A DNA stretch of 64,000 nt from Bacteroidota bacterium. GTDB taxonomy: Bacteria > Bacteroidota > Ignavibacteria > UBA10030 > SZUA-254. The notes beneath the pieces were generated by a model, which was given only the letters and a program-made list of their open reading frames with translations, was not told the DNA's origin and did not search any database. Shown piece after piece: positions 5,268-45,271 of this stretch. The stretch's first letter is position 1; each line of letters begins with the position of its first letter. The position numbers and the translations under genes were made by a program. Location of the stretch: the NCBI GenBank assembly GCA_033854175.1, contig JAWOKN010000056.1, positions 3,736 to 67,735 on the forward strand, in the 5' to 3' direction.

Positions 5268-5287
5268 CCTGTCATTCAGGAGACAAT

Positions 5288-5488: not shown

Positions 5489-5493
5489 ACCCG

Positions 5494-29090: not shown

Positions 29091-29306
29091 ATGGATCATC
29101 GAATGAACGGGGAAATCGTGGAAATCTACATCAGGGACGGGTCGACGCTTGCGAAAGTGCGCGTGGACGGCACCTATTTTCACGTTCCGCTTCTTCTCCT
29201 GATGAACGCCCATGTGGGCGACCACATCATCATCGACGCCGGAATCGCATTAACAAGGATCGAACGGAAGGCAAAGAGCCGGCAGGCTGCAGAACCGGCG
29301 CTGTAG
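29091..29306 (+). CDS. HypC/HupF-like small beta-barrel protein lacking the N-terminal Cys
   Basis: MDHRMNGEIVEIYIRDGSTLAKVRVDGTYFHVPLLLLMNAHVGDHIIIDAGIALTRIE parallels HypC (MCLAIP...VDFGG...VGDYVLVHVGFAI), but MC is replaced by MN. AAGGA lies 8 nt upstream. Confidence 0.3.
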   Translation: MDHRMNGEIVEIYIRDGSTLAKVRVDGTYFHVPLLLLMNAHVGDHIIIDAGIALTRIERKAKSRQAAEPAL

Positions 29307-29526: not shown

Positions 29527-32202
29527 ATGATGATCGGCACGCTCATATCCCATTACAAAATACTTGAAAAACTCGGCGAGGGAGGAATGGGTGTGGTATA
29601 CAAGGCGCACGACACAAAGCTCGAGCGCGTGGTTGCGCTGAAATTCCCCCCTCAGGCGCTCACGGCCGACCCGGAGGAGAGGGAGCGGTTTTACCAGGAG
29701 GCCCGATCGGCATCGCAGCTTCTCCACCCGAACGTCTGCACGATCTTTGAGATCAACGAATCGGAGAAGCAAATCTATATTGCCATGGAGTATGTCGACG
29801 GCCCGACCCTCAAGAAACGGATTCAGGCAGACAATCCGATGCCCCTGGGAAAATCCCTTGACATCGCCATCCAGATCTGCAACGGGCTTGTTGCCGCCCA
29901 TGAAAAGGGGATCGTGCACCGGGACATCAAATCCGAGAACATACTGCTGACGGCCAGGGGGGAGGTAAAAATCACCGATTTCGGACTCGCCAAGCTCAAA
30001 GGTGCGGAGAAGCTCACGAAAACAGGAAGTACATTGGGCACTGCCGCCTACATGTCCCCCGAGCAGGCGCGTGGTGAGGATGTCGATGCGAGAAGCGACA
30101 TATTCTCCTGCGGGGTGGTACTGTATGAACTCTTCGCCGGCAGGCTTCCTTTCCGCGGAGAACACCAGGCTGCGATACTCTACTCACTGGTGAACGAAGA
30201 GCCCGCGCCCCTGGCGAGGTTCAATGAGCACGTGTCGCCGGACCTGCAGCATATTGTTTCAAAGGCGCTCGCCAAAGACAGGGAGGACCGTTATCAGCAT
30301 GCCGACGAAATGCTTGCCGACTTGAGGCGGGAACGCAAACGCATGGAGTACGCGCGAACCGGTGTAATCATACAGCCAAAAGTGGTTTCCTCCACGCAAG
30401 AAGTCCAAGCGCAGGAAGCCTCAGACCGTTCGGGAGGCACCAAGCGAGTGATATGGGGCGTCGCCGGTGCTGTCATTCTTCTTGTCGCAGCCGGTATTTA
30501 TCTCACGGTCTGGAAACCCGGACCCAATCAGAGCGCGACAAATTCCGCAATCAGCAAGATTGCGGTACTCCCATTCGAGAACATCGGACCATCCGACAAG
30601 GAATATTTTGCGGACGGTCTCACCGACGAGATACGGACAAAGCTCAGTGGGCTTTCGAATCTGGCCGTCATTGCCCGTGCAAGTTCGATGCAGTACAAAA
30701 AGACCACGAAATCCATCTCGGAAATCGGCACCGAACTCAGTGTCGGTTACCTGTTGCAGGGGACCATACGATGGGAGGAAGGAGGATCGTCCCAGAGTGC
30801 TGTTCACCTTTTGGTAAATCCTTCCCTGGTGAAAATCACCGACGGGACGCAGGTCTGGTCGCAGTCATTCGAAGGGACCCTGTCGAGCGTCTTTCAGATG
30901 CAATCCGACATCGCGCAGCAGGTCGCACGCGCGCTCGAGGTGGCATTGAATCCCAGCGACCAGCAAGTCATCACCTCGAGGCCGACCAACAACGCCGAAG
31001 CGTACGATTACTTTTTACAGGGGCAGCAAAAATTGTATTTGCCGACCTCGGCGGACATGAAAGAGGCGCTTCCGATGTTTGAGAAAGCGATCAAACTTGA
31101 TCCAAAATTTGTCGCCGCCTATGCGGATTTATCCCGTGCGTACGCTTTCGCGACATTTCAGGGAATGAGCCCTGACAGCCTCCTTGTGTTATCGAAGAAA
31201 TCGCTTGACAAGGTCAAAGAACTGGAACCAAATTCGTTTCTGGCAAACTGGTCGGAAGGCTACTACTATTATTACGGGTTCAGAGATTACGACCAGGCAT
31301 TACGGCACTTCACCACGGCACTGAATCTCCAGCCCAACAATGTGGACATCATATCCGCGATCGGGTATGTCAAGCGGAGGCAGGGAAAATTCCAGGAAAG
31401 CCGCGATCTCCTCGCCAGGAGCTGTGATCTTGACCCGCAGGCGTGGCGCAACTGGTTCGAGCTCGGCTATGTAGAGCTCGTCATGCGTCAATATCCTCTG
31501 GCGGACGAACACATGAAGCGGGCGCTCCTGGTTTTCGGCAAGGGAAATGTCGCGGTAGCGGCATATCATTCGCAGGCCATCTTCTCCATGAACGGCGACG
31601 TCAGGGGGGCGCAGGAACTCTTCGACCGGGAGGCCGGCGAAAACAGATCGTGGTTATACAAGATGAGGAGTGCTCAACTCCATCTTGCGGGCGGGAATGT
31701 CGGCGCCGCCATAAATGATCTTTCCCGTGCGGTGCTCTCGGAGCCGGACGTGGATTCCACGGTCTACTACATGTTCTCAGGGCTCCTGCATGAACAATCC
31801 GGGCCCCGTAGTGCAGGGCGTGCTTATTTCGATAGTGCAAGAATTCTCGCAGAAAGAACAGTACACAACGCCCCCAATCAGGCCGTGGCTCACATGAATC
31901 TGGGAATCATCCTGGCTCATCTCGGACAAAAAGCCCGTGCAATTGAGGAGGGGGAAAAGGGGGTACGACTGATGCCGCTGGAAAAGGACGCGCTTGATGA
32001 AGGGCCGAACGCACTCTATGAGTTAGCTCAGATTTACGCTCTCACGGGAGAATCTGACGCTGCAATCGACAAGCTTGAACAGATATTGAGCATTCCAAAC
32101 ATGTACTCGGTCTATTTTGTGCAATCCGATCAGGAGCTTGCATCACTTGCGACGCTGCCCCGGTTTCAGAAATTGCTGGAAAAGTACAAAACTGCGCGGT
32201 AA
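29527..32202 (+). CDS. Ser/Thr protein kinase with TM helix, TolB-N-like periplasmic domain and TPR repeats
   Basis: Kinase subdomains are present (GEGGMGVVYKA, HRDIKSENILL, DFGLAK). TM helix is VIWGVAGAVILLVAAGIYLTVW. The periplasmic region has AVLPFENIGPSDKEYFADGLTDEI followed by TPR-like repeats. Confidence 0.85.
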   Translation: MMIGTLISHYKILEKLGEGGMGVVYKAHDTKLERVVALKFPPQALTADPEERERFYQEARSASQLLHPNVCTIFEINESEKQIYIAMEYVDGPTLKKRIQADNPMPLGKSLDIAIQICNGLVAAHEKGIVHRDIKSENILLTARGEVKITDFGLAKLKGAEKLTKTGSTLGTAAYMSPEQARGEDVDARSDIFSCGVVLYELFAGRLPFRGEHQAAILYSLVNEEPAPLARFNEHVSPDLQHIVSKALAKDREDRYQHADEMLADLRRERKRMEYARTGVIIQPKVVSSTQEVQAQEASDRSGGTKRVIWGVAGAVILLVAAGIYLTVWKPGPNQSATNSAISKIAVLPFENIGPSDKEYFADGLTDEIRTKLSGLSNLAVIARASSMQYKKTTKSISEIGTELSVGYLLQGTIRWEEGGSSQSAVHLLVNPSLVKITDGTQVWSQSFEGTLSSVFQMQSDIAQQVARALEVALNPSDQQVITSRPTNNAEAYDYFLQGQQKLYLPTSADMKEALPMFEKAIKLDPKFVAAYADLSRAYAFATFQGMSPDSLLVLSKKSLDKVKELEPNSFLANWSEGYYYYYGFRDYDQALRHFTTALNLQPNNVDIISAIGYVKRRQGKFQESRDLLARSCDLDPQAWRNWFELGYVELVMRQYPLADEHMKRALLVFGKGNVAVAAYHSQAIFSMNGDVRGAQELFDREAGENRSWLYKMRSAQLHLAGGNVGAAINDLSRAVLSEPDVDSTVYYMFSGLLHEQSGPRSAGRAYFDSARILAERTVHNAPNQAVAHMNLGIILAHLGQKARAIEEGEKGVRLMPLEKDALDEGPNALYELAQIYALTGESDAAIDKLEQILSIPNMYSVYFVQSDQELASLATLPRFQKLLEKYKTAR

Positions 32203-32358: not shown

Positions 32359-32383
32359 TTATTCAACAGTACGTGTTGAATAA
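32359..32383. promoter_or_regulatory. 25-bp palindrome TTATTCAACA-gtacg-TGTTGAATAA (candidate bEBP upstream activator sequence)
   Basis: Perfect 10-bp arms in an AT-rich region, about 190 bp upstream of the sigma-54-like -24 element at 32560. Confidence 0.4.
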
Positions 32384-32559
32384 ATAAACGCATTCATAAA
32401 TACTTGTTTTGAAATTATTTACACATCTTCAGCAGCCTTCGCCCGGTTTTCTGTAAAATAATTCATCAACTCTTCTTCATCTCAATCCTGAAAAAAAGTT
32501 TCACTCCCCCATCTTCTTACATATTCACCACTTAGCATCACGGTTTTTTCCATAGTTAC

Positions 32560-32575
32560 TGGCATGATATTTACA
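32560..32575 (+). promoter_or_regulatory. sigma-54-like promoter candidate (TGGCAT-GATAT-TTACA)
   Basis: Correct GG/N5 spacing, with two mismatches to TGGCAC-N5-TTGC (the -12 GC is replaced by AC). It lies about 50 nt upstream of ATG 32626. The upstream palindrome and the operon-encoded bEBP support it. Confidence 0.35.
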
Positions 32576-32625
32576 TAAGTGATGGGTGAATAAATAAGCA
32601 CGCAAGGACAGAAGGAGCAGTGAAA

Positions 32626-33303
32626 ATGACAGTCATATTCGTAATAGCGACGATTATATTCTTCCTCACGCTTGATTGGGTTGTGAGGCGGATAAGGGCA
32701 AGAAAAGCAGCACCGGTAACTGCGGTACACCCGTCGGCATATCCGATACGTGTACCGGAGGGGATATTCTTCACCAGATCGCACACCTGGCTCAATCTTT
32801 TCCCCTCGGGGAAAGTACGGCTCGGAATCGATGATTTTGTGGGCCGCATGGTAGAAAACCCGCAGATCATTTTCCTCAAGAAAAGCGGCGAGAGTATCTC
32901 CCGTGGAGAGCCCCTGTTGACGATGAAGGAAGACGAGCATCTGCTGACCGTCAGATCGCCGATCGACGGGGAGATCGAATCGATCAACGAGGAACTCCCG
33001 CGGCATCCCGACCTTTTGAAGGACCTCCTTTTCAGTGACGGCTGGGCATACACGATCAAGCCGAGAAAGTTCTCTGAAATCAAGGGCTTACTTCTCGGGA
33101 CAGAGACGAGGGAATGGATGCGGGCGGAATTCGGCCGTCTGCGTGATTTCTTTGCGGGGATCTCTCACAACGGCACAATAGCCCCGGCCCTCCTGCAGGA
33201 CGGCGGGCCGCCGATGGCGGGCGTCATGAAAACGATGGACGACGCGGTGTGGCAGAATTTCGAGCATGAGTTCCTCACGATCGAAGAATCTGAAAGGGCA
33301 TAG
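32626..33303 (+). CDS. membrane-anchored glycine-cleavage-H-fold (lipoyl/biotinyl-type barrel) protein
   Basis: ATG 32626 has GAAGGAG 8 nt upstream. N-terminal TM helix is MTVIFVIATIIFFLTLDWVV, followed by RRIRARK. It continues ...FTRSHTWLN...GKVRLGIDDFVGRMVENPQIIFLKKSGESISRGEPLLTMKEDEHLLTVRSPIDGEIESINEEL...DGWAYTIKP, which parallels GcvH (HEW...vGitd.aq..lGdiv.v.lp.vG...ESvKaas..ysPvsGev.evNe...GWl.k.k). Confidence 0.5.
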   Translation: MTVIFVIATIIFFLTLDWVVRRIRARKAAPVTAVHPSAYPIRVPEGIFFTRSHTWLNLFPSGKVRLGIDDFVGRMVENPQIIFLKKSGESISRGEPLLTMKEDEHLLTVRSPIDGEIESINEELPRHPDLLKDLLFSDGWAYTIKPRKFSEIKGLLLGTETREWMRAEFGRLRDFFAGISHNGTIAPALLQDGGPPMAGVMKTMDDAVWQNFEHEFLTIEESERA

Positions 33304-33305
33304 CG

Positions 33306-34124
33306 ATGGCGAGTGCGAAGGCGATGTTAATCGACCTCACGATGTGCATCGGGTGCAATTCGTGTCAGGATGCCTGCAAGAAGGCAAACGGTTTACCCGA
33401 AGGGGAGGAACAGCAGTTATCGGCAACCGCCTATACGGCGCTCAATGAATACAACGGCGTCTATGTCCGGAGGATGTGTCAGCACTGCATCCAGCCGACC
33501 TGTGCATCGGTCTGTCCCGTTGGTGCGTTGAAAAAGACGCCCGAGGGGCCTGTCCTCTACGACGAATCGAAGTGTATCGGCTGCCGGTACTGCATGCAGG
33601 CATGTCCGTTCCAGGTGCCTAGGTACGAGTGGAGCAGCACCTATCCGAGAATCCAGAAATGCCGCTTCTGTGCGGAGAGGCTTGCGAAGGGGATGCCCAC
33701 GGCATGTTCGGAGGCATGTCCGACGGGTGCGACAAAATTCGGCGACCGGGACGAACTGGTGCGCGAGGCCTACCAGCGGATATCCGCGGAACCGGGGAAA
33801 TACATCGACAAGGTCTACGGCCTCCAGGAAGTCGGAGGGACGTCAATACTGTACCTCTCCTCGGTTCCGTTCGAGCAGCTGGGATTCAAGACCCAGCTGG
33901 AGTCCAACGCGCTGCCGCTCCTCACGTGGAACGTGCTGTCGAAGATTCCGAACGTGGTCAGTGTCGGCGGAGTGGCGCTCTTCGGCATCTGGTGGATCAC
34001 CAACCGCCGGATGGAACTCGAGAAAGAGCGAAAAAACGGCCGGGCAAACGGTACGGCGCCGGGGGATGACCATCATTCCCGGAAAGAACAAACCCAACAA
34101 ACCGAGAATGGAGAGAGAGTATGA
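33306..34124 (+). CDS. HybA/DsrO/NrfC-like 4x[4Fe-4S] ferredoxin-type subunit with C-terminal TM anchor, no Tat/Sec signal
   Basis: Four Cys clusters (CIGCNSCQDAC, CQHCIQPTCASVCP, CIGCRYCMQACP, CRFCAERLAKGMPTACSEACP). C-terminal helix is VVSVGGVALFGIWWITNRR. The N-terminus MASAKAMLIDLTMCIGC has no twin-arginine motif. Confidence 0.8.
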   Translation: MASAKAMLIDLTMCIGCNSCQDACKKANGLPEGEEQQLSATAYTALNEYNGVYVRRMCQHCIQPTCASVCPVGALKKTPEGPVLYDESKCIGCRYCMQACPFQVPRYEWSSTYPRIQKCRFCAERLAKGMPTACSEACPTGATKFGDRDELVREAYQRISAEPGKYIDKVYGLQEVGGTSILYLSSVPFEQLGFKTQLESNALPLLTWNVLSKIPNVVSVGGVALFGIWWITNRRMELEKERKNGRANGTAPGDDHHSRKEQTQQTENGERV

Positions 34125-35323
34125 AACGCAGACTTCAGCAACTGACACTCTGGAAGGTCGTCGCCGGGCTGATCATCCTCAGCGGCCTCATATCAACCTA
34201 CGTCCGTTTCGCAAAAGGGCTGGGGGCGGCGACGCACCTGAGCGATCAATTCCCGTGGGGATTATGGATCGGGTTTGACATCCTGTGCGGCGTGGGGCTT
34301 GCGGCCGGGGGGTTCACGCTGGCTGCGATCGTCTACATCTTCAACATCAGGCGGTTTGAAGCGATCATCCGGCCGACCATCTTGACGGCATTCCTCGGCT
34401 ATCTCCTTGTGATTGCCGCGCTGATGTTCGATCTCGGGCGGCCGCTGCAGATATGGCATGCGATCATCATGTGGAACCATCACTCGGTCATGTTCGAGGT
34501 CGCGTGGTGCGTCATGCTCTACACGACAGTTCTCGCCCTTGAATTTTCGCCGATGCTCTTTGAAAAATTCAGGATGAACAACACGCTGAAGACATTCCAC
34601 AAAATCAGCATACCGCTCATTATCCTCGGGGTGATCCTCTCGACGCTGCACCAGTCGTCGCTCGGCTCGCTCTACCTCATCGTGCCCGAGAAGCTCTACG
34701 GCCTCTGGTATTCCGCCTATCTGCCGGTATTCTTCTACGTCTCGGCGATCGCGGTCGGCTGTGCGATGGTCATCTTCGAATCCATCCTGAGTTCCCGGGC
34801 GTTCCGGAAGAGCCTGGAAACGAACCTCCTTGCGGAGCTGGCCCGCATCAGCGTCGTGGCGCTCGCCGTTTACGCCACGATGAAGATCGTCGACTTGAAG
34901 GACCGCGACGTCATCAGCCTCCTCTTCCTCCCCCGCGCCGAGACCTATTTTTACTGGGCTGAGATCACCGTCGGGGTCATCGCACCGATCATACTTTTCT
35001 CCATCAGAAAAGCCCGTGAGAGTCAGACGGGGTTATTCGCCGGGGCCACGATGATCATCACCGGGTTCATCATGAACCGTCTCAACATCAGTCTGACGGG
35101 GATGGAAGGCTGGGCCGGTCTTTCCTACTTCCCGTCATGGATGGAAATTTCCGTCACCCTCACCATCGTCACGGTGGGGTTCATTGCATTCCGGCTTGCG
35201 GCCAAATATCTGCCGGTGTTCAAGCCCGAACTGAACGTTCCCGAAAAGGAATTCGCACACCCGATCGTCGAGGATCTCCACAGCGTCTCATCGTCGCGGG
35301 AACGCTCGATGATACTGGAATAA
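34121..35323 (+). CDS. NrfD/PsrC/HybB-family polytopic membrane protein (quinone-interacting subunit)
   Basis: About 10 predicted TM helices. It overlaps the HybA-like gene by 4 nt and has the family-typical architecture. Confidence 0.8.
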   Translation: MKRRLQQLTLWKVVAGLIILSGLISTYVRFAKGLGAATHLSDQFPWGLWIGFDILCGVGLAAGGFTLAAIVYIFNIRRFEAIIRPTILTAFLGYLLVIAALMFDLGRPLQIWHAIIMWNHHSVMFEVAWCVMLYTTVLALEFSPMLFEKFRMNNTLKTFHKISIPLIILGVILSTLHQSSLGSLYLIVPEKLYGLWYSAYLPVFFYVSAIAVGCAMVIFESILSSRAFRKSLETNLLAELARISVVALAVYATMKIVDLKDRDVISLLFLPRAETYFYWAEITVGVIAPIILFSIRKARESQTGLFAGATMIITGFIMNRLNISLTGMEGWAGLSYFPSWMEISVTLTIVTVGFIAFRLAAKYLPVFKPELNVPEKEFAHPIVEDLHSVSSSRERSMILE

Positions 35324-35328
35324 TTGTC

Positions 35329-36087
35329 ATGAACGAGAATCAAAAAAATTACACAATCATCCCTGAAGGAGACTCCCGGTGTGTCTGGATGTCGGCCGGG
35401 ATCCTCAGCTACCAGCTCTGCAACCGCGCATTCGACTGCGACGCATGTCCGCTCGACATGGCGATGCGGCAGCACTTCCCGCGACCCGAGGGGGAGAAGG
35501 ATGAGGCGGCGCCAGGCAGGGAGCGTGAGGAAACAGAACTCCGCGGCGCGTACAGTTACACGGCAACGCATTTCTGGGTAAAGTCGATCTCCACCTCGCT
35601 CTACCGTGTGGGACTTGAACCGGGGATAGCCCACGCATTATTCGTCCCGCGGACCATCGTCTTGCCCGCCTCGGGTGAAACGCTCCAGGCATCGCAGCCC
35701 TGTCTCTGGTTCGTGATGGAGGCCGCGACCGTCCCCTTCGACGCATTCGCCGACGGCGTGGTTGTGACGCAGAATGTGCTCTTGCCGGAGCGGCCCTACA
35801 AAGTCCATTACCATCCGTACGACCAGGGATGGCTCTTTGACATGAAGTTCGACGCAGCGGGGGGTGAGCCGGATCTCCTGACCGCGGTCCAGGCGGAGAA
35901 ACTCTACGGCAGGGACCAGAAACTCTTCCGTGACAGGCTCCGCGACACGCTACAGACCGCGCCGGCTGGAGCGACACTCCAGGACGGCGGACAGCTTTTG
36001 AAAAATCTCCCTGAAATGCTCGGACCGAAGAAATACTTCGATCTCATCGAGGAGATCTTTCTGAAAAGGGGTGTCACAAAAAAATAA
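35329..36087 (+). CDS. soluble GcvH-fold protein with Cys-rich N-terminal extension (C-x12-C-x5-C-x2-C)
   Basis: N-terminus CVWMSAGILSYQLCNRAFDCDACP. It continues YTATHFWVKSISTSLYRVGLEPGIAHAL...ETLQASQPCLWFVMEAATVPFDAFADGVVVTQNVLLPERPYKVHYHPYDQGWLFDMK, which parallels the GcvH fold. There is no Lys at the lipoyl position. Confidence 0.45.
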   Translation: MNENQKNYTIIPEGDSRCVWMSAGILSYQLCNRAFDCDACPLDMAMRQHFPRPEGEKDEAAPGREREETELRGAYSYTATHFWVKSISTSLYRVGLEPGIAHALFVPRTIVLPASGETLQASQPCLWFVMEAATVPFDAFADGVVVTQNVLLPERPYKVHYHPYDQGWLFDMKFDAAGGEPDLLTAVQAEKLYGRDQKLFRDRLRDTLQTAPAGATLQDGGQLLKNLPEMLGPKKYFDLIEEIFLKRGVTKK

Positions 36088-36332
36088 CCCGCCGCGAACA
36101 GGCTGGACGGGGGTACCGCTCACCCGGGGGTGTACAGGGGTGGGCGGTAGTTATTCGGGGTGGGGGTGATCCGGTAAAACCACCTTTAACCATTTTGTGA
36201 TAAAATCCCCGAATTCATTTCAAATCTGATAACTCCGGGGGAAAAGACGGGCCGGAGAGAAGCCAAATCTCCGTTTTTCAGTATCATCTCAACCCCCTTT
36301 ATGGCACGAGAATTGACGATAACGGAAATGGT

Positions 36333-37982
36333 ATGAAGGCATTCCGTTCGCTCAGTGTGAGGGTATTTGCGGGGTCATTTCTCCTCCTTGTGACCCTCCT
36401 GGGGCTCTATTCCTATTTTGCGATAAAGTTTCACACCGAACAGATGATGGAGATCGTCCTGGGAAACGCAAGCCGCATCAGCGACATCATCAAGAACTCG
36501 ACCCACTACAGCATGCTCCTCAACAGGAAGGAGGACGTCTACCAGACGATCCTCACCATCGGCAAGGAAAAGGGGGTTGAAGGGATACGGATTTACAACA
36601 AGCGGGGAGAAATCATGGCCTCCTCCCGCACCGAAGAAAAACTGCAGATTGTCGACATGCATGCTGAAGCCTGTTACGTCTGCCATGAGAAGGGAAAACC
36701 CCTGGAATCGCTCGCATCGGACAACAGGATGCGGATCTACACCTCCCCGAAGGGGTACAGGGTACTGGGTTTGATCAACCCCATCCACAACGAGCCAAGC
36801 TGTTCGAATGCCGATTGCCATGCTCATCCGCCTGATAAAACCATACTCGGTGTACTCGACGTTCGGATGTCGCTGGAAAACGTCGACACGGCAATCGCCG
36901 AAGCGCACGCCAAGATGATCAGCTGGGCGGTCGGGGGAGTTCTCCTTGCATCGCTCCTCATCTCGGTCCTCCTCTACAGAACCGTGCATCGGCCCGTCAA
37001 GCGGCTCACGCTGGGGACGCATGAAGTCTCCTCCGGCAACCTCGATCTCCGGATACCCATACACTCGAAGGACGAACTGGGGCAGCTTGCCGAATCGTTC
37101 AATTCGATGACGACCTCATTGCGCAACCTCATTGAAGAGAAAAACACCTGGTCGCGCGAGCTGGAGGAGCGGGTCCGTGAAAAAACCGCCGAGTTGAAGC
37201 ACATTCACGAGCAGATCCTGCAGATTGAAAAGATGACATCGCTCGGGAAGCTCGCGGCGACCGTTGCGCACGAACTGAACAACCCCCTGGAAGGGATCCT
37301 GACCTACGCGAAGCTCCTGGCGAAGCAGCTCAGGAAAGCCGAATTCTCTGCGGACCGGTCAAAGGAATTTCTCGAGGAACTCAATCTCATCATCCAGGAA
37401 ACGGACCGGTGCGGAACGATCGTGAAGAACCTCCTCCTCTTTTCCCGGAAGCAGGTCGGCGAATTCGCGCTTGCGCCTGCGCGGCAGATCGTGGAGAAGG
37501 CCCAGCGTCTCGTGGATCACCACTTCCACATCTCCAACGTGAAATTCGAGGCCACGTACGCGCCTGAGGACGTGTCGCTCATGTGCGACGAAATGCAGAT
37601 CCAGCAGGCCTTGATTGCGCTCTTTGTCAACGCGGTTGAAGCCATGCCGGGGGGCGGCACACTGCGCGTCGATGTCTCGCAGCGTTCGAAGGATGACAAC
37701 ATCATCCTCCGCATTTCGGACACCGGTACGGGGATAGCGGAGGAGGATCTCCACAACATCTTCGAACCATTTTTCACAACAAAAAAGGAGGGTCAGGGTG
37801 TCGGCCTCGGCCTCTCGGTTGTCTACGGCATCGTCGTCCGTCACGGCGGCACGATCAGTGTGGAGTCGAGTCTCAACAAGGGAACGGCATTCACGCTGAC
37901 CTTCCCGGCGCTTGAGCGGAGCACCAAGGGAATCCCGGAGCCGGAGGCGAAAAAATCACCCATTGATCCACACTATGCATAA
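36333..37982 (+). CDS. sensor histidine kinase with periplasmic CXXCH (putative c-type heme) sensor domain
   Basis: TM1, then a ~165-aa periplasmic region containing CYVCH and CSNADCH, then TM2 (ISWAVGGVLLASLLISVLLY), a HAMP domain, HisKA (LAATVAHELNNPL) and HATPase_c (DTGTGI...GQGVGLGL). Confidence 0.85.
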   Translation: MKAFRSLSVRVFAGSFLLLVTLLGLYSYFAIKFHTEQMMEIVLGNASRISDIIKNSTHYSMLLNRKEDVYQTILTIGKEKGVEGIRIYNKRGEIMASSRTEEKLQIVDMHAEACYVCHEKGKPLESLASDNRMRIYTSPKGYRVLGLINPIHNEPSCSNADCHAHPPDKTILGVLDVRMSLENVDTAIAEAHAKMISWAVGGVLLASLLISVLLYRTVHRPVKRLTLGTHEVSSGNLDLRIPIHSKDELGQLAESFNSMTTSLRNLIEEKNTWSRELEERVREKTAELKHIHEQILQIEKMTSLGKLAATVAHELNNPLEGILTYAKLLAKQLRKAEFSADRSKEFLEELNLIIQETDRCGTIVKNLLLFSRKQVGEFALAPARQIVEKAQRLVDHHFHISNVKFEATYAPEDVSLMCDEMQIQQALIALFVNAVEAMPGGGTLRVDVSQRSKDDNIILRISDTGTGIAEEDLHNIFEPFFTTKKEGQGVGLGLSVVYGIVVRHGGTISVESSLNKGTAFTLTFPALERSTKGIPEPEAKKSPIDPHYA

Positions 37983-37997
37983 CCTCACAGAAAACGT

Positions 37998-39344
37998 ATG
38001 AACAACGATATATCCATACTCATTGTCGACGATGAAAAGGTCGTCCGCGAATCCCTCTCGAAGTGGTTCAAGGAAGACGACTTCATCGTGGGCGCATCAG
38101 AAAACGCGGCTGAAGCCCTGAAACAGCTCCAGGTGCGGAAATGGGACATCATTCTCCTCGACATCAAAATGCCGGGGATGGACGGGATGGAGTTACAGCA
38201 GCGAATCCGGGAGATCGACCCCGGAGCGACGATCATCTTCATCACGGCGCACGCCTCGGTCGACACGGCGGTCCAGGCCCTGAAGGCGGGGGCGTTCGAT
38301 TACATCGCGAAGCCGATCGACCCCGACTACCTGTCGCATCTGATCCAGAACGCCATCAAGCAGCGGATCCTGACGGGAGAAAACATCCGTCTGAAGGAGC
38401 AGATCACCGAATTCGCGAAAGTCGATGAGATCATCGGCGACTCCCCGCAGATGAAGAAGGTCTTCGAACTGATCGAAACGGTGGCAAAGACCGACACGAC
38501 GGTCATGATCCGGGGCGAAAGCGGAACGGGGAAGGAGCTCATCGCGCGGGCGATTCACGGCAACAGCGAACGGCGGTATTTTCCCATCGTCGCCATCAAC
38601 TGCGGGGCATTGCCGGAGGGAATACTGGAAAGCGAACTCTTCGGTCATGAGCGGGGTGCGTTTACCGGGGCGCAGTACAGGAGAAAGGGAAAAATCGAGC
38701 TGGCCGACGGCGGCACATTATTTCTTGACGAGGTCGGCAACATCGGGATGAAGACCCAGATGGACCTCCTCCGTGTAATCGAGACAAAGCAATTTTCGCG
38801 TGTCGGGGGAAACGAGCTGATCAAGGTGGACTTCAGGACCATCTGCGCGACAAACAGGGATCTCGAGAAGGCCGTTCAGGAGGGCACCTTCCGTGAAGAC
38901 CTCTATTACCGTCTCAACGTCTTCTCCGTCCTCGTCCCCCCCTTGCGCGAGCGGAAGTCGGACATCCCCCTGCTGGCAAATTACTTTTTGAAAAAATACT
39001 CGCGATCGATGGGGAAGCCGATCGTGACCATCTCCTCGGACGCGATGGATCTGATGGTCAAATACAACTGGCCCGGGAACATCCGCGAGCTGGAAAACGC
39101 GATAGAGCGGGCGATGGTGGTCGGAAAGCCCCCCTGCATCAAGGCGGTGGATCTGCCGATACAGTTCTCCGATCTCATTGCGGCACCTTCGCTCGGATCT
39201 CTGGCATCGATGGAAAAAAGCCACATCGCCGAGATCCTCCGGATGAACAACTGGAACATCTCCCGGTCCGCGGAAGTCCTGCAGATCGACCGGGTCACTC
39301 TCTACAACAAGATCGAAAAATATGGCCTGAAAAAGCCGCAGTGA
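37998..39344 (+). CDS. sigma-54-dependent response regulator (NtrC family: REC + AAA+ + HTH)
   Basis: REC domain (ILIVDDE...DIILLDIKMPGMDG), AAA+ domain (GESGTGKELIARAIH, GAFTGA) and a C-terminal Fis-type HTH. Confidence 0.9.
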   Translation: MNNDISILIVDDEKVVRESLSKWFKEDDFIVGASENAAEALKQLQVRKWDIILLDIKMPGMDGMELQQRIREIDPGATIIFITAHASVDTAVQALKAGAFDYIAKPIDPDYLSHLIQNAIKQRILTGENIRLKEQITEFAKVDEIIGDSPQMKKVFELIETVAKTDTTVMIRGESGTGKELIARAIHGNSERRYFPIVAINCGALPEGILESELFGHERGAFTGAQYRRKGKIELADGGTLFLDEVGNIGMKTQMDLLRVIETKQFSRVGGNELIKVDFRTICATNRDLEKAVQEGTFREDLYYRLNVFSVLVPPLRERKSDIPLLANYFLKKYSRSMGKPIVTISSDAMDLMVKYNWPGNIRELENAIERAMVVGKPPCIKAVDLPIQFSDLIAAPSLGSLASMEKSHIAEILRMNNWNISRSAEVLQIDRVTLYNKIEKYGLKKPQ

Positions 39345-39880
39345 CGACAGCCATCCACATCATGACGACGGCGTCGCACCCGGTAACCGATCTCGGACAC
39401 ATTTCACACACCATACAGAGGATATTCAGCCTACCGGTCGACGTGGTCAAGGGGAGTTTAAACCCGGAGCGTGCGTTCGACAGCTCCCGCCGTCAGTACA
39501 ATTCCACAGCACTCATTGCGCACATCCTCTCCTCCAACGGGGGTGACGGGAGGAAAATCCTCGGGCTTGTGGATGTCGATCTCTTCATCCCGATCCTCAC
39601 CTTTGTCTTCGGCGAGGCACAATTCACCGGCTGTGTTGCTGTCGTCTCCTCCTTCCGTCTTGCGAACCAGTTCTACGGGCTTGAACACGATCCGATCTTA
39701 CTCCGTGACCGGGTCGAAAAGGAAATCGTGCATGAGCTCGGCCACACATTCGGTCTCCACCACTGCAGGCATTTTGACTGTGTCATGCGCTCCTCGACCT
39801 ATGTGGAGGAGATCGACTTAAAAAAGGTGGAGATGTGCGGCACATGTTCGGAAAAACTCCAGCTCATCACCGCGCACTAG
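39341..39880 (+). CDS. archaemetzincin-family zinc metallopeptidase
   Basis: HELGHTFGLHHCRHFDCVMRSS...MCGTCSEKL is the archaemetzincin HExxHxxGxxH plus Cys4 signature. It overlaps the response-regulator gene by 4 nt. Confidence 0.75.
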   Translation: MTTAIHIMTTASHPVTDLGHISHTIQRIFSLPVDVVKGSLNPERAFDSSRRQYNSTALIAHILSSNGGDGRKILGLVDVDLFIPILTFVFGEAQFTGCVAVVSSFRLANQFYGLEHDPILLRDRVEKEIVHELGHTFGLHHCRHFDCVMRSSTYVEEIDLKKVEMCGTCSEKLQLITAH

Positions 39881-39929: not shown

Positions 39930-39962
39930 CCTGCAAAAATCACATTGCAGGCTTTCATTTTT
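39930..39962 (+). terminator. candidate intrinsic terminator after the two-component system/archaemetzincin operon
   Basis: CCTGCAA-aaatcacat-TTGCAGG followed by CTTTCATTTTTGAT. Confidence 0.4.
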
Positions 39963-40097
39963 GATAAAAACGCATCCGTTTTTTGAGGTTTCAGAGTTGA
40001 TTCGGCACATTTTGGCTTATGCCTCAATGGAATGATTCTTGCATTTTACTTTGCGGTTTACTTCAATCTTTTACTTTCTCGAAAGGACATTTGAGCC

Positions 40098-43000
40098 ATG
40101 CCAGATGTAGCGGCAGGAAGAACATTACGGCAGAAGGTCACGCTTGACGGCAACGAAGCGGCTGCCTTCTCCGCGCACAAATTAAACGAAGTCATAGCAA
40201 TCTACCCCATCACCCCCTCCTCCAACATGGGGGAATGGTCGGACGAATGGTCGTCGCTCGGGAGAAAAAACCTCTGGGGGACGGTACCTCTTGTCGTCGA
40301 AATGCAGAGTGAAGGGGGAGCTTCGGGGGCGGTCCACGGGGCGCTGCAGGCCGGCGCGCTCTCGACCACGTTCACATCGTCACAGGGACTCCTCCTGATG
40401 ATCCCGAACATGTTCAAGATCGCGGGCGAACTGACCTCGACCGTCTTCCACATCGCGGCGCGCACGGTAGCGACCCACGCCCTCTCCATATTCGGCGATC
40501 ACAGCGACGTCATGGCGGTCCGGTCGGCGGGCTGGGCGATGCTGGCTTCGAACTCGATACAGGAGATCATGGACTTTGCCCTGATTGCGACGGCGGCGAC
40601 GCTTGAATCGCGTGTTCCGTTTGTCCATTTCTTTGACGGATTCCGGTCATCGCACGAGGTGATGAAAATCGAACAGCTTTGCGAGGACGACTTCCGGGCG
40701 ATGATGGATGACAAGCTCATCTTCCAGCACCGGGCGCGGGGGCTCTCGCCGGAGCATCCCGTCATGCGCGGATCGGCGCAGAACCCCGACGTCTTCTTCC
40801 AGGCCCGGGAAACCGTGAACCCCTACTATCTCGCATGTCCCGCGATCGTCCAGAAAACGATGGACAAATTCGCGCGTGTTGTCGGCCGGAAATACGAGCT
40901 CTTCCAGTACGTCGGTGCGGCCGATGCTGAGCGGATCATCATCATGATGGGATCCGGTGCGGAAACCGCCGAGGAGACGGTGGAGTATTTGAACCGGAAA
41001 GGCGGCAAGGTGGGATTACTCAAGGTCCGGCTCTTCCGGCCCTTCTCCATCGAGCATTTTTTGAAGGCGCTCCCCTCCTCGACCAAGTCGATTGCGGTAC
41101 TCGACCGGACGAAGGAGCCGGGAAGCACAGGGGAACCGCTCTACCAGGACGTTACCACAGCATTAAGCGAAGCCTTTGCCGGCGGCACGTCGCCCCTCAC
41201 GTCGTTCCCGAAAATCATCGGCGGCCGATACGGCCTCTCGTCGAAAGAATTCACACCGGCGATGGTGAAAGCGGTCTACGACGAACTTCAGAAGCCGGCC
41301 CCCAAAAACCACTTCACCGTCGGGATCAAGGATGACGTCACCCACACGAGTCTGTCGTACGACGCGAGTTTCACGACCGAAGCGGACGATGTGATCCGGG
41401 CCATCTTCTACGGTCTCGGAGCGGACGGGACCGTGAGTGCGAACAAAAATTCAATCAAGATCATCGGCGAGGACACCGACAATTTTGCGCAGGGGTATTT
41501 CGTCTACGACTCCAAGAAATCCGGATCGACGACCGTCTCCCATCTGCGTTTCGGACCCCGTCCGATCCACTCGACCTATCTGATCTCGCAGGCAAATTTC
41601 GTCGCATGTCATCAGTGGTTCTTCCTCGAAAAATACGACGTTTTGCAGCCCGTCATCCAGGGCGGAACGTTCCTTCTGAACAGCTCGTTCGGGCCCCAGG
41701 AAGTCTGGGACAACCTGCCGGTCAACATCCAGAAGCACATCATCGAGAAGAAGCTCAAATTCTACGTCATCGACGCCTACAACGTGGCGAAAGAAACAGG
41801 GATGGGCGGAAGGATCAACACCATCATGCAGACATGTTTCTTCGCCATATCCGGTGTACTCCCCCGGGAGGACGCCATCAAGGCGATCAAGCACTCCGTC
41901 GAAAAGACCTACGGCAAGAAGGGGGAGGATGTTGTCAGGCAGAACTTCATGGCCATCGACAAGACGCTGGCCAACCTCTTCGAGGTCAAGGTACCCTCGA
42001 AGGTCACGAGCACGATAACGATGCCCGACACCGTATCACCGAAGGCGCCCAAATACATCCGGGAAGTCACGGCGGAAATCATCGCGGGTTTCGGTGACAG
42101 GCTCCCGGTGAGTTCGATGCCCGTCGACGGGACATTCCCGGTCGGATCGGCGCAGTGGGAAAAGCGAAACATTGCTTTGGAGATTCCGGTATGGGAACCC
42201 GAAATCTGCATACAGTGCAACAAGTGCATCCTGGTCTGTCCGCACGCAACCATACGGACCAAGGTCTTCGATCCGAAACTCCTTGGGGGCGCGCCCGCGA
42301 CATTCAAGTCGATCGACTTCAAGGGGATGGAATACAAGGGTATGAAATACTCCATCCAGGTCGCCCCGGAAGACTGTACGGGGTGCGGGCTCTGTGTGGA
42401 CATCTGTCCTGCGAAGAGCAAGACCATGACCAAGGTCAAGGCCATCAACATGAAACCGCAGCCACCGATACGCGAGGCCGAGCGTGACAACTACGACTAC
42501 TTCCTGTCGCTTCCGGAAGTCGACCGGCGGACCGTCAAGGTTGACAACATCAAAGGATCGCAGTTCCTGCAGCCGCTCTTTGAATACTCCGGGGCATGTT
42601 CGGGCTGTGGCGAGACACCCTACGTAAAACTCGTCAGCCAGCTTTTCGGCGACAGGTGTGTTGTAGCAAATGCGACCGGTTGTTCCTCCATCTACGGCGG
42701 CAACCTCCCGACCACACCATGGACGGCGAACAAGGACGGAAGGGGGCCGGCATGGTCGAATTCACTCTTTGAAGACAATGCGGAATTCGGGCTCGGCATG
42801 CGGCTGACCATTGACAAGCACACCGAGATGGCGCGGGAGCTCGTGAAAAAGCTCTCAACATCGATCGGTGAAAACCTTGCCACGGCGATCCTCAATGCCA
42901 ATCAATCCGACGAAGCCGGCATCCACGAGCAGCGCGAGCGGGTACAGTTCCTGAAGGACAAGCTGCGCGAGCTTGCCACCCCTGATGGCAACAATCTCCT

Positions 43001-45230: not shown

Positions 45231-45256
45231 AATATCGGATAAATCTATCCGATATT
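45231..45256. promoter_or_regulatory. 26-bp perfect palindrome AATATCGGATA-AATC-TATCCGATATT (copy B), abutting a sigma-54 -24 element
   Basis: 11-bp perfect arms. It lies 2 nt after the Rrf2 stop codon and is homologous to the feoAB-promoter copy at 7703..7728. Confidence 0.55.
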
Positions 45257-45271
45257 GGCACAGATGTTGCA
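45256..45271 (+). promoter_or_regulatory. sigma-54 promoter (TGGCAC-AGATG-TTGCA), perfect consensus
   Basis: Exact -24/-12 elements, upstream of the NapH-like/methyltransferase/OsmC gene string. Confidence 0.65.

What the first reader, a model, noticed from the sequence alone, without database searches (positions are those of the whole stretch)
32359..39880. Uncharacterised sigma-54-controlled membrane redox operon: two GcvH-fold proteins flanking a HybA-like/NrfD-like pair, with a heme-motif sensor kinase, bEBP and archaemetzincin
Seven co-oriented, tightly packed genes run from 32626 to 39880 with 4-nt overlaps or 2-5-nt gaps: TM-anchored GcvH-fold protein, 4x[4Fe-4S] HybA-like protein, NrfD-like membrane protein, Cys-rich GcvH-fold protein, histidine kinase, NtrC-type regulator and archaemetzincin. 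HybA-like plus NrfD-like is the quinone-reactive module of Psr, Hyb, DsrOP and ACIII. Here the Fe-S subunit has no Tat/Sec signal, so it should face the cytoplasm, and no catalytic molybdopterin or hydrogenase subunit is present. Instead the module is bracketed by two proteins with the glycine-cleavage-H fold (the lipoyl/biotinyl swinging-arm fold), one membrane-anchored and one with a 4-Cys N-terminal knuckle. I do not recognise this gene combination as a described complex. Upstream there is a perfect 25-bp palindrome (32359-32383) at UAS distance from a sigma-54-like promoter (32560-32575). The operon itself encodes a sigma-54 activator and a kinase with a periplasmic CXXCH domain, suggesting redox-sensed autoregulation.
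Basis: partly seen in the sequence, partly recalled or inferred. Interest (0 to 1): 0.85.

Follow-up and report, generated by a model that had tools for sequence, protein, structure and literature searches.

The report
Conserved sigma-54 membrane redox gene cassette
Seven genes that stay together across at least eight bacterial phyla encode a quinone-linked iron-sulfur membrane module, two unusual H-protein-like proteins, a haem-based sensor kinase, its sigma-54 activator and a metalloprotease; I found no paper that describes this combination.

Summary
All seven genes and their domain assignments are real. The "25-bp palindrome" is 10-nt arms around a 5-nt spacer. Packing is not uniformly tight: a 245-nt gap precedes the kinase gene and holds a second sigma-54-like promoter.

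The cassette is not a chance adjacency. In 47 species-level loci with enough flank, the Cys-rich H-fold gene has the activator nearby in 45, another H-fold gene in 44, the Fe-S, NrfD and kinase genes in 43 each, and the protease in 39. The promoter and its upstream palindrome are conserved between phyla.

The Fe-S/NrfD pair is a HybA/HybB (HmcBC)-type module. It keeps four residues reported as functionally important in HybB. The H-fold proteins are paralogues that lack the lipoyl lysine, so they are not swinging-arm carriers. The kinase has two invariant c-haem motifs in a PAS/PDC-type domain.

The membrane subunit is not inverted. The tail anchor matches HybA. Some relatives are coupled to periplasmic cytochromes c. 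How a signal-less four-cluster protein is exported is unexplained. I rate it a new variant of a known kind, of moderately high interest.

The parts
32359..32383 (.). Upstream activator-type inverted repeat TTATTCAACA-N5-TGTTGAATAA, about 200 bp upstream of P1. It is the likely binding site of the g6 activator.
   Evidence: Arms are 10 nt and 100% complementary with a 5-nt spacer. The core is unique in the window. The same TTCAACA-N5-TGTTGAA lies at about -200 in L001, L003 and the Acidobacteriota locus L041. Variants occur in L017, L021, L039 and L042. Binding is inferred.
32560..32575 (+). P1, a sigma-54-like promoter TGGCATGATATTTACA, 51 nt upstream of the g1 ATG
   Evidence: The sequence is. 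TGGCAC-G-N4-TT.C[AT] is found just upstream of the first structural gene in about 20 related loci whose flanks have diverged. The G of the -12 GC is variable.
32626..33303 (+). g1: N-terminally membrane-anchored H-protein-fold protein, non-lipoylatable, with a C-terminal RLRD...LQDGG extension
   Evidence: GCV_H 6e-13. The TM helix is followed by RRIRARK, which predicts a cytoplasmic domain. Glu stands at the lipoyl-Lys position. More than 400 homologue clusters were found.
33306..34124 (+). g2: HybA/HmcB-type 4x[4Fe-4S] protein with a C-terminal tail anchor and no signal peptide
   Evidence: HmcB 1e-75 and HybA 1e-58, both below the curated cut-offs. It is colinear with E. coli HybA from the first Cys motif to the TM helix and basic tail. 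All close homologues lack a Tat signal.
34121..35323 (+). g3: HybB/HmcC-type NrfD-family membrane subunit with ten helices
   Evidence: NrfD 3e-20. HmcC 6e-102 and HybB 5e-89. HybB R89, Y99, E148 and H184 are invariant. K+R counts are 23 inside and 8 outside, as in HybB.
35329..36087 (+). g4: soluble H-protein-fold protein with an invariant N-terminal C-x12-C-x5-C-x2-C motif and an LQDGG extension
   Evidence: Family alignment. The Cys motif is present in 62 of 62 homologues. The AF2 model has a GcvH core with pLDDT above 90, and its top Foldseek hits are H-proteins. Ala stands at the lipoyl-Lys position. It is a paralogue of g1 (hhalign 99.4%). It lies next to the kinase or activator gene in 69 of 83 loci.
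36218..36232 (+). TTTCA-N4-TGATAA box, 84 bp upstream of P2. It may be an IHF-like or activator site.
   Evidence: The motif occurs 7 times in the window against 0.75 expected. The same box lies upstream of the PFOR promoter and is conserved there in related loci. Function is inferred.
36302..36317 (+). P2, a sigma-54-like promoter TGGCACGAGAATTGAC, 16 nt upstream of the kinase ATG
   Evidence: The sequence is. A TGGCAC...TTGC box lies just upstream of the kinase gene in L032, L038 and L043 (21-31 nt before the called ORF start) and in the g4-kinase gap of L005. L078 has TGGCACGATAATTGAA upstream of g4.
36333..37982 (+). g5: sensor histidine kinase with a periplasmic PAS/PDC-type domain carrying two c-haem motifs (C114xxCH, C157xxxxCH), then HAMP, HisKA and HATPase
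   Evidence: Pfam. M61, C114, C117, H118, C162 and H163 are invariant. The profile hits the Geobacter haem-c sensor 3b42 at 5.6e-4. The AF2 model matches WalK, KinD, DctB and GSU0935 sensor domains.
37998..39344 (+). g6: NtrC-type sigma-54 activator with REC, an AAA+ domain carrying GAFTGA, and HTH_8
   Evidence: Pfam and NCBIfam. GAFTGA is present. Identity is 57-91% in cassettes of other phyla.
39341..39880 (+). g7: archaemetzincin (M54) with an intact active site. It overlaps g6 by 4 nt. A public gene call starts it 21 nt later.
   Evidence: NCBIfam archmetzin scores 162.4 against a cut-off of 145. HExGHxxGxxH is present in 42 of 43 homologues and Cys4 in 43 of 43.
39930..39951 (+). Terminator-like hairpin followed by a T-run after g7

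Best explanation
This is a conserved sigma-54 regulon made of two transcription units.

Unit 1 (P1, g1-g4) encodes a HybA/HybB-type, HmcBC-like, menaquinone-reactive membrane module. It consists of a tail-anchored four-cluster Fe-S protein and a ten-helix NrfD-family subunit. With it come two paralogous H-protein-fold proteins on the cytoplasmic side. They cannot carry lipoate. One is membrane-anchored. The other has an invariant Cys4 metal site.

Unit 2 (P2, g5-g7) encodes a kinase with two c-haem motifs in its periplasmic PAS/PDC-type domain, an NtrC-type activator and an active-site-intact archaemetzincin.

Proposed mechanism:
- The haems report periplasmic redox state, or a haem ligand.
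- The kinase phosphorylates the activator.
- The activator binds TTCAACA-N5-TGTTGAA about 200 bp upstream of P1 and drives sigma-54 transcription of the module. Through P2 it probably also drives its own unit.
- The module passes electrons between periplasmic carriers and the menaquinone pool. In relatives these carriers are multihaem cytochromes c, and in one locus a [NiFe] hydrogenase.
- The Fe-S domain most likely sits on the periplasmic side.
- The H-fold proteins act as cytoplasmic accessory subunits or as feedback partners of the kinase. Their chemistry is unknown.

Shown: the domain content, the co-conservation, the conserved promoter and palindrome, the HybB-like orientation and residues, the missing lipoyl lysine and the haem motifs.

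Inferred: complex formation, direction of electron flow, haem attachment, the activator-to-site assignment, the side the Fe-S protein faces, and the roles of the H-fold proteins and the protease.
For: - Domains were assigned.
- The cassette occurs in 118 species genomes from Ignavibacteria/Bacteroidota, Acidobacteriota, Eisenbacteria, Gemmatimonadota, Myxococcota, Planctomycetota, KSB1 and others.
- In 47 loci with enough flank the partners are present in 39 to 45.
- Gene order varies, with the regulatory unit divergent in several phyla. Linkage is therefore selected and is not plain synteny.
- P1 is conserved upstream of the first structural gene in about 20 loci. P2 is conserved upstream of the kinase gene.
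- The palindrome is conserved at about -200, including in an Acidobacteriota locus.
- HybB R89, Y99, E148 and H184 are invariant.
- g3 has the HybB K+R bias.
- g2 is colinear with HybA, including the tail anchor.
- Sister-subtype Fe-S proteins carry Tat signals.
- Multihaem cytochromes c lie in or near 17 cassettes. One is translationally coupled to a signal-less g2 in L046.
- hybO-hybC-hybD are joined to the cassette in L078.
- The kinase haem motifs are invariant. Its fold and profile link it to the Geobacter haem-c sensors.
Against: - No g2 of this subtype has a Tat signal.
- No Tat-signal ORF lies in the window. None was found within 4 kb of such cassettes, although that filter was too strict and missed most known Tat-bearing g2. 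A periplasmic location therefore needs an unidentified export route.
- The window cassette contains no periplasmic electron partner.
- No tool could test physical association of the H-fold proteins with the Fe-S/NrfD pair.
- Several Acidobacteriota loci have g4, the kinase, the activator and the protease but no Fe-S/NrfD pair nearby (L027, L039, L040, L070). The H-fold proteins may therefore belong to the signalling side rather than to the complex.
- The P1 -12 element lacks the canonical GC.
Confidence: 0.5

Rival explanations
1. Cytoplasm-facing ferredoxin:menaquinone oxidoreductase. The signal-less Fe-S protein and the H-fold proteins would form an input module on the cytoplasmic side. It would take electrons from reduced ferredoxin made by the neighbouring pyruvate or 2-oxoacid:ferredoxin oxidoreductase and reduce menaquinone through the NrfD subunit.
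For: - About 36 loci in six or more phyla lack a Tat signal on g2.
- No Tat partner was found nearby.
- All H-fold proteins are predicted to be cytoplasmic.
- PFOR or a four-subunit OFOR lies next to the cassette in about 40 Ignavibacteria/Bacteroidota loci.
- PFOR has its own conserved sigma-54-like box.
- SoeABC shows that NrfD-type complexes on the cytoplasmic side exist (PMC8076601).
Against: - g3 is not inverted, unlike what is proposed for SoeC. Its K+R bias equals that of HybB.
- In NrfD-like subunits generally, SoeC excepted, the quinone site lies on the periplasmic side next to the Fe-S subunit (PMC8076601). This was not tested for g3. If it holds, the site would be far from a cytoplasmic Fe-S protein.
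- The g2 tail after the TM helix is basic and conserved (WWITNRR), as in HybA.
- OFOR adjacency also occurs in cassettes whose Fe-S protein has a Tat signal (L012, L024, L030, L031). It is absent outside one lineage.
- A signal-less g2 is coupled to a periplasmic hexahaem cytochrome in L046.
Confidence: 0.2
2. Signalling accessory model. The H-fold proteins, g4 above all, and the archaemetzincin are not subunits of the redox complex. They would be parts of the two-component pathway. For example, g4 could be a metal- or redox-sensitive partner that modulates the kinase or the activator, with the protease turning it over. The Fe-S/NrfD pair would then be only the usual regulated output.
For: - g4 lies directly next to the kinase or activator gene in 69 of 83 loci.
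- g4, the kinase, the activator and the protease persist without a nearby Fe-S/NrfD pair in L027, L039, L040 and L070.
- The protease gene is translationally coupled to the activator gene.
- The Cys4 motif of g4 is invariant.
- A sigma-54 box sits directly upstream of g4 where it is the first gene (L040, L042).
Against: - A membrane-anchored H-fold gene sits immediately upstream of the Fe-S gene in both subtypes, and in the window only 2 nt separate them. This points to co-assembly.
- There is no precedent for H-protein-fold regulators of two-component systems.
- Nothing tested here shows an interaction.
Confidence: 0.17
3. Orphan HybA/HybB of a periplasmic [NiFe] hydrogenase encoded elsewhere. 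The Fe-S protein would be exported by hitch-hiking on the hydrogenase.
For: - HybA and HybB are among the best family matches.
- The functionally important HybB residues are conserved.
- The KSB1 locus L078 has g2-g3-cytochrome c-hybO-hybC-hybD-hypA.
- HypC- and HypE-like genes lie near some cassettes.
Against: - Only 1 of about 85 loci has hydrogenase structural genes.
- The Ignavibacterium album genome paper's hydrogenase passages, as retrieved, describe only [FeFe] hydrogenases (PMC3362086). A MAG assigned to that species carries the cassette (L028).
- Scores are below the HybA and HybB equivalog cut-offs.
- The local HypC-like ORF lacks the N-terminal Cys.
Confidence: 0.08
4. Fortuitous adjacency of unrelated genes.
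For: None beyond the absence of experimental data.
Against: Co-occurrence is 39-45 of 47 loci across many phyla, with rearranged gene order. Promoter and activator-site motifs are shared.
Confidence: 0.01

Closest known systems
E. coli hydrogenase-2 membrane module HybA/HybB
   Same: It has a four-cluster Fe-S protein with a C-terminal tail anchor and a ten-helix NrfD-family subunit. They are colinear over their whole length. HybB R89, Y99, E148 and H184 are conserved. Membrane orientation is the same.
   Different: g2 has no Tat signal. No HybO/HybC hydrogenase lies in the cluster. Scores are below the NCBIfam equivalog cut-offs. H-fold proteins, a haem kinase, a sigma-54 activator and a protease accompany the pair.
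Desulfovibrio Hmc (HmcB/HmcC) and Nhc-type cytochrome c-Fe-S-NrfD complexes
   Same: These are the best NCBIfam matches (HmcB 1e-75, HmcC 6e-102). Some relatives of the cassette have a multihaem cytochrome c next to the Fe-S gene, as in Hmc and Nhc.
   Different: The window has no cytochrome c and no HmcD/E/F equivalents. Scores are well below the cut-offs (254 against 420, and 342 against 550). The organisms are not sulfate reducers.
'NrfCD cluster' without a catalytic subunit noted in Melioribacter roseus (Mros1571/1572; PMC3534657)
   Same: It is an Fe-S plus NrfD pair lacking a molybdopterin subunit in the same bacterial group. It was interpreted as a quinol:periplasmic-cytochrome link.
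   Different: Identity with this cassette was not tested, because that genome was not retrieved. The paper's text contains no mention of glycine cleavage or HybA in the term search. Whether it discusses a kinase, an activator or a protease for that cluster was not checked.
SoeABC sulfite:quinone oxidoreductase, an NrfD complex on the cytoplasmic side
   Same: Its Fe-S subunit has no Tat signal. It shows that NrfD-type complexes can face the cytoplasm (PMC8076601).
   Different: SoeC is proposed to be inverted and has eight helices. g3 has ten helices and is not inverted. No molybdopterin SoeA is present.
Glycine cleavage H protein and lipoate-binding relatives (LbpA of sHdr systems, GcvH-L)
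   Same: The fold is the same, with Foldseek E values from 1e-10 to 1e-8 and TM-scores up to 0.9 on the target. The HxW and GW motifs are conserved.
   Different: The lipoyl lysine is replaced by Ala or Gly in the g4 family and by Glu, Gly, Asn or Asp in the g1 family. The proteins add a membrane anchor or a Cys4 knuckle, plus a family-specific C-terminal LQDGG extension.
Geobacter chemoreceptor haem-c PAS sensor domains GSU0582/GSU0935 (PDB 3b47, 3b42; Pfam PF21563)
   Same: It is a periplasmic PAS/PDC-type fold with a CXXCH motif. Profile and fold matches support the link. PF21563 is recorded for many homologues.
   Different: The domain sits on a histidine kinase and not a chemoreceptor. 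It has a second invariant CX4CH motif. The Pfam score of the window protein is below gathering (19.4 against 27).

Membership tests
HybA/HybB (hydrogenase-2 quinone module) | NrfD-family subunit with the functionally important HybB residues R89, Y99, E148 and H184 | tested here: met
   All four are invariant in the window protein and in 16 relatives aligned with E. coli HybB. Their functional importance is taken from PMC8076601.
HybA/HybB (hydrogenase-2 quinone module) | Curated NCBIfam equivalog score reached | tested here: not met
   HybA scores 198.7 against a cut-off of 263. HybB scores 299.4 against 450.
HybA/HybB (hydrogenase-2 quinone module) | Twin-arginine signal on the Fe-S subunit | tested here: not met
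   g2 starts 13 residues before the first Cys (C14). Only a few in-frame codons lie upstream.
HybA/HybB (hydrogenase-2 quinone module) | Adjacent [NiFe] hydrogenase small and large subunit genes | tested here: not met
   tblastn with HybO and HybC found hits only in L078, and none in the window.
Hmc complex (HmcB/HmcC) | Curated equivalog scores and an adjacent multihaem HmcA | tested here: not met
   HmcB scores 254.3 against 420. HmcC scores 341.8 against 550. No ORF with four or more CXXCH motifs lies within 4 kb of the window cassette.
NrfD-type complex on the cytoplasmic side (SoeABC-like) | Membrane subunit inverted relative to PsrC or HybB | tested here: not met
   K+R counts are 23 in cytoplasmic loops and 8 in periplasmic loops. 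This matches HybB (17/6) and the Tat-type relatives.
Glycine cleavage H protein / lipoyl carrier | H-protein fold | tested here: met
   Pfam GCV_H is above gathering for g1 and g4. PDB profile hits reach 1e-18. Foldseek gives top hits to H-proteins.
Glycine cleavage H protein / lipoyl carrier | Conserved lipoyl-lysine in the hairpin (E. coli ESVK) | tested here: not met
   g4 has Ala, and its family consensus is Gly. g1 has Glu, and its family varies among E, G, N and D.
Glycine cleavage H protein / lipoyl carrier | NCBIfam GcvH score reached | tested here: not met
   The scores are 50.3 and 36.6 against a cut-off of 117.
Sigma-54-dependent promoter | -24 GG and -12 GC elements with canonical spacing | tested here: inconclusive
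   The spacing and the -24 TGGCA are canonical. The -12 element reads TTACA at P1 and TTGAC at P2. The box is conserved in position across about 20 loci. Transcription start sites were not testable.
NtrC-type bacterial enhancer-binding protein | Receiver domain, AAA+ domain with GAFTGA, and a C-terminal Fis-type HTH | tested here: met
   Response_reg 4.5e-34, Sigma54_activat 9e-71 and HTH_8 3e-10. GAFTGA is present. No named equivalog cut-off is reached.
Archaemetzincin (peptidase M54) | Family score, HExxHxxGxxH zinc site and a Cys4 structural site | tested here: met
   NCBIfam archmetzin scores 162.4 against a cut-off of 145. The protein has HELGHTFGLHH and C-x4-C...C-x2-C. These are conserved in 42 of 43 and 43 of 43 cassette homologues.
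Haem-c PAS/PDC periplasmic sensor (PF21563, GSU0582/0935 type) | PAS/PDC fold with a conserved CXXCH | tested here: met
   C114, C117 and H118 are invariant. The profile hits 3b42 at 5.6e-4. Foldseek matches WalK, KinD, DctB and 3b42. The Pfam score of the window protein is below gathering.
Haem-c PAS/PDC periplasmic sensor (PF21563, GSU0582/0935 type) | Covalently bound haem | not testable with these tools
   This needs haem staining or mass spectrometry of the expressed domain.

The most novel reading that the evidence does not exclude
The signal-less Fe-S protein and the non-lipoylatable H-protein-fold paralogues may form a previously unknown peripheral module on a HybB-type subunit. One version is a cytoplasm-facing input that links ferredoxin from PFOR or OFOR to menaquinone. 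The other is a periplasmic four-cluster protein that reaches its place by a Tat-signal-independent route helped by the membrane-anchored H-fold proteins. In both versions the H-protein fold would have a new, lipoate-free role in a respiratory complex.
Probability: 0.2. Interest if true: 0.85.

Novelty: new variant of a known kind. Interest (0 to 1): 0.62.

Why it matters
NrfD/Fe-S modules are the common quinone-coupling unit of many anaerobic respiratory complexes, and their catalogue was thought to be largely complete. This cassette adds a widespread version with partners never reported for such modules. About 420 sequence-cluster representatives of the g4 family were found at E up to 1e-30. 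The family occurs in 118 species genomes, mostly uncultured soil, sediment and groundwater lineages. The new partners are lipoate-free H-protein-fold proteins, an archaemetzincin and a dedicated two-haem-motif sensor kinase with a sigma-54 activator. The cassette also poses a clear cell-biological puzzle. Either a four-cluster protein crosses the membrane without its own Tat signal, or it works on the 'wrong' face of a non-inverted HybB-like subunit. Because the cassette appears in a MAG assigned to Ignavibacterium album, a cultured species, the questions may be open to experiment if the type strain also carries it.

Tried and rejected
- Lipoyl-carrier function. Rejected, because the lysine is absent in both families.
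- Inverted, SoeC-like membrane subunit. Rejected by the K+R bias.
- Wrong start codon hiding a signal peptide. Rejected, because only a few in-frame codons lie upstream in about 36 loci.
- A Tat-signal partner to hitch-hike on. None was found in the window. None was found within 4 kb of signal-less cassettes. That filter was strict and missed some true Tat signals, so it is only weak evidence.
- A functional link to PFOR as an argument for cytoplasmic orientation. Weakened, because OFOR adjacency is confined to one lineage and also occurs with Tat-type Fe-S proteins.
- Hydrogenase accessory role. Only 1 of about 85 loci has hybOC.
- Known domains in the g4 Cys-rich N-terminus and in the LQDGG extensions. 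Pfam found nothing significant.
- A structured RNA in the 245-nt g4-g5 gap. Rfam found nothing.
- Sequence search of the PDB with the kinase sensor alone. It found nothing. A profile and a fold search were needed.
- Foldseek against AFDB, to find cultured-organism homologues. The library was unavailable.
- Literature. Nine searches found no paper that combines these components.
- ORF calling in high-GC loci was unreliable. Neighbour inventories for Gemmatimonadota, Eisenbacteria and Myxococcota rest on tblastn and motif scans only.
- Multimer prediction could not be run with the tools available.

Full report
**What is in the window.** Seven plus-strand genes run from 32626 to 39880.

| Gene | Coordinates | Content |
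|---|---|---|
| g1 | 32626-33303 | N-terminal membrane helix, then a glycine-cleavage H-protein domain |
| g2 | 33306-34124 | 16 cysteines in four ferredoxin-type motifs; best matches HmcB and HybA |
| g3 | 34121-35323 | NrfD-family protein; best matches HmcC and HybB |
| g4 | 35329-36087 | Cys-rich N-terminus, then an H-protein domain |
| g5 | 36333-37982 | HAMP/HisKA/HATPase kinase |
| g6 | 37998-39344 | REC, sigma-54 AAA+ and HTH_8 activator |
| g7 | 39341-39880 | Archaemetzincin, above its NCBIfam cut-off |

Three details of the observation need correction.
- The palindrome is TTATTCAACA-GTACG-TGTTGAATAA, with 10-nt arms and a 5-nt spacer.
- The -12 element of the sigma-54-like box TGGCATGATATTTACA reads AC instead of GC.
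- The genes are not uniformly tight. A 245-nt gap separates g4 from g5.

**The cassette is conserved, not fortuitous.**
- A pattern scan of one genome per species found relatives of g4 in 118 genomes. They come from Ignavibacteria/Bacteroidota, Acidobacteriota, Eisenbacteria, Gemmatimonadota, Myxococcota, Planctomycetota, KSB1 and others. One is a MAG assigned to Ignavibacterium album.
- tblastn with the window proteins shows the other six genes around g4 almost everywhere.
- Among 47 non-redundant loci with enough flank, the activator is present in 45 and another H-fold gene in 44. The Fe-S, NrfD and kinase genes are present in 43 each, and the protease in 39.
- Gene order differs between phyla. 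In several, the kinase-activator-protease unit is divergent from the structural genes. Extra membrane-anchored H-fold paralogues are common. Linkage therefore survives rearrangement.
- An exhaustive profile search found 423 cluster representatives of the g4 family at E up to 1e-30.
- Public annotations call these proteins 'glycine cleavage system H protein' or 'hypothetical'.

**Regulation.**
- The P1 box is conserved as TGGCAC-G-N4-TT.C[AT] just upstream of the first structural gene in about 20 loci. The surrounding sequence has diverged.
- The core of the palindrome, TTCAACA-N5-TGTTGAA, recurs at about -200 in L001, L003 and the Acidobacteriota locus L041. Variants occur in four more loci. 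It is unique in the 64-kb window.
- A second box, TGGCACGAGAATTGAC at 36302-36317, lies 16 nt before the kinase start codon. Its counterpart lies just upstream of the kinase gene in L005, L032, L038 and L043.
- I therefore read two sigma-54 units, g1-g4 and g5-g7. The second ends at a terminator-like hairpin at 39930-39951.
- That g6 binds the palindrome is an inference. It rests on co-conservation and on the standard architecture of NtrC-type activators. g6 has the GAFTGA motif.

**The kinase.**
- An alignment of sensor-domain homologues shows M61, C114, C117, H118, C162 and H163 invariant. C157 and H165 are nearly invariant. These make one CXXCH and one CX4CH motif.
- A profile of the domain hits the Geobacter haem-c chemoreceptor sensor 3b42 at E 5.6e-4.
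- An AlphaFold model (mean pLDDT 81) has the PAS/PDC fold of the WalK, KinD, DctB and GSU0935 sensor domains.
Covalent haem attachment itself cannot be shown here.

**The Fe-S/NrfD pair.**
- Aligned with E. coli HybB, g3 and 16 relatives keep R89, Y99, E148 and H184. PMC8076601 reports that replacing these residues in HybB significantly decreased hydrogen oxidation.
- g2 is colinear with HybA from the first cluster motif to the C-terminal transmembrane helix and the basic residues after it. Only the Tat signal is missing.
- Relatives fall into two subtypes. Every Fe-S protein at least 49% identical to g2, plus one further clade, lacks a signal. This covers about 36 loci in six or more phyla. 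Every protein at or below 48% identity carries a canonical RRxFLK signal.

The evidence points the other way but leaves a paradox.
- For a periplasmic location: g3 has 23 K+R in predicted cytoplasmic loops and 8 in periplasmic loops. This matches HybB and the Tat-type relatives, so it is not inverted as SoeC is proposed to be.
- The tail motif WWITNRR after the g2 helix is conserved, which fits a cytoplasmic tail.
- In the Eisenbacteria locus L046, a signal-less g2 overlaps by 4 nt the gene of a Sec-signal hexahaem cytochrome c. Six-haem-motif cytochrome ORFs also lie near signal-less g2 in L035 and L081.
- Against a periplasmic location: no Tat-signal protein lies in the window, and none was found near such cassettes. 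A folded four-cluster protein has no known export route without one.
- I rate the periplasmic side the more likely, at roughly two to one. I flag the export route as unexplained.

**The H-fold proteins.**
- g4 models as a high-confidence H-protein core. The Cys-rich N-terminus is of low confidence and C-terminal helices are added. Its top structural matches are H-proteins.
- In the alignment with E. coli GcvH, the lipoyl lysine is Ala or Gly in the g4 family. It is Glu, Gly, Asn or Asp in the g1 family. These proteins cannot be lipoyl swinging arms.
- g1 and g4 are paralogues (hhalign 99.4%, E 7e-22). The alignment runs through a shared C-terminal extension that ends in an almost invariant LQDGG. 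Pfam has no model for this extension or for the Cys4 N-terminus.
- All membrane-anchored paralogues have basic residues after the helix, which predicts cytoplasmic domains.
- g4 is the gene most tightly tied to the regulators. It is adjacent to them in 69 of 83 loci. It persists with them where no Fe-S/NrfD pair is nearby.
- Whether the H-fold proteins are cytoplasmic-side subunits of the complex or partners of the signalling proteins cannot be decided with these tools.

**Electron partners and context.**
- The window cassette has no catalytic or cytochrome subunit.
- Seventeen of the loci scanned have a multihaem cytochrome c in or near the cassette.
- The KSB1 locus L078 continues from g2-g3 into a cytochrome c3-type gene, hybO, hybC, hybD and hypA.
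- Together with the Hmc and Hyb affinities, this supports a role in linking periplasmic carriers with menaquinone.
- In Ignavibacteria/Bacteroidota the cassette lies next to PFOR or a four-subunit OFOR. This holds for both Fe-S subtypes and not for other phyla, so I treat it as lineage synteny, possibly with co-regulation.
- The I. album genome paper's hydrogenase passages, as retrieved, describe only [FeFe] hydrogenases, and NrfD and glycine cleavage do not occur in its text.
- The Melioribacter paper notes an NrfCD pair without a catalytic subunit. Its text contains neither 'HybA' nor 'glycine cleavage'.

**Novelty.**
- No paper in the searchable library combines NrfD with GcvH-like proteins or with archaemetzincin. 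None combines archaemetzincin with sigma-54.
- The review of NrfD-type complexes lists no such group.
- The core is a known kind, a HybAB/HmcBC-type module. The accompanying parts, the loss of the signal and the dedicated regulatory unit are new. I therefore rate it a new variant of a known kind.
- Interest is moderately high. The function is still inferred, but the cassette is widespread. It poses a concrete topology and export puzzle, and it can be tested.

Noticed in passing
window 40028-40043, upstream of the PFOR gene at 40098-43733: A sigma-54-like box, TGGAATGATTCTTGCA, precedes the pyruvate:ferredoxin oxidoreductase gene. It is conserved as TGGAATGATTNTTGYA in L001, L003, L006, L007, L032 and L034, although the flanks differ. 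PFOR may be sigma-54-dependent in this lineage.
   Followed up: partly
window 19816, 36218, 39953 (exact); 7773, 13069, 19785, 28853 (one mismatch): The motif TTTCA-N4-TGATAA occurs 7 times against 0.75 expected. Two exact copies lie 75-85 bp upstream of sigma-54-like boxes (P2 and the PFOR box). The PFOR copy is conserved in related loci. It may be an IHF-like bending site or a regulator site.
   Followed up: partly
window 29091-29306 (+): A 71-aa HupF/HypC-family ORF (Pfam 1.8e-7) lacks the N-terminal cysteine of HypC. In L001 and L003 a 71-aa ORF lies about 370-600 bp upstream of the cassette's first gene. The L001 product hits PF01455, while the L003 product has no Pfam hit on record. HybG/HypC-like hits lie upstream of the cassette in L010 and L016, and HypE-like ORFs lie near the cassette in five loci, L016 among them.
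   Followed up: partly
window 29527-32202 (+): An 891-aa Ser/Thr protein kinase with TPR repeats lies between the HypC-like ORF and the cassette. It is absent at this position in the syntenic loci L001 and L003, so it looks like a local insertion.
   Followed up: no
window 45256-45271 (+), upstream of the ORF at 45328-46578: A consensus sigma-54 box, TGGCACAGATGTTGCA, precedes an ORF. By synteny with L001 that ORF is a Fer4_5 (NapH-like) membrane polyferredoxin. It follows PFOR, a DHODH-like gene and an Rrf2 regulator gene.
   Followed up: no
L012, L013, L024, L030, L031, upstream parts: Cassettes whose Fe-S protein has a Tat signal carry additional genes upstream. These are a 13-haem class III cytochrome c, a further Fe-S protein and a second kinase/response-regulator set.
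   Followed up: partly
L078 (KSB1) 533-7045, minus strand: This is the only locus where the cassette joins a full uptake-hydrogenase set. The order is g2 (with Tat signal), g3, a cytochrome c3-type gene, hybO, hybC, hybD and hypA. The set is divergent from g4-g1.
   Followed up: yes
window 36095-36175: A markedly G-rich stretch lies in the g4-g5 intergenic region. It includes runs such as GGGGGT, GGGGTGGGCGG and GGGGTGGGGGT. There is no Rfam match, and its significance is unknown.
   Followed up: partly
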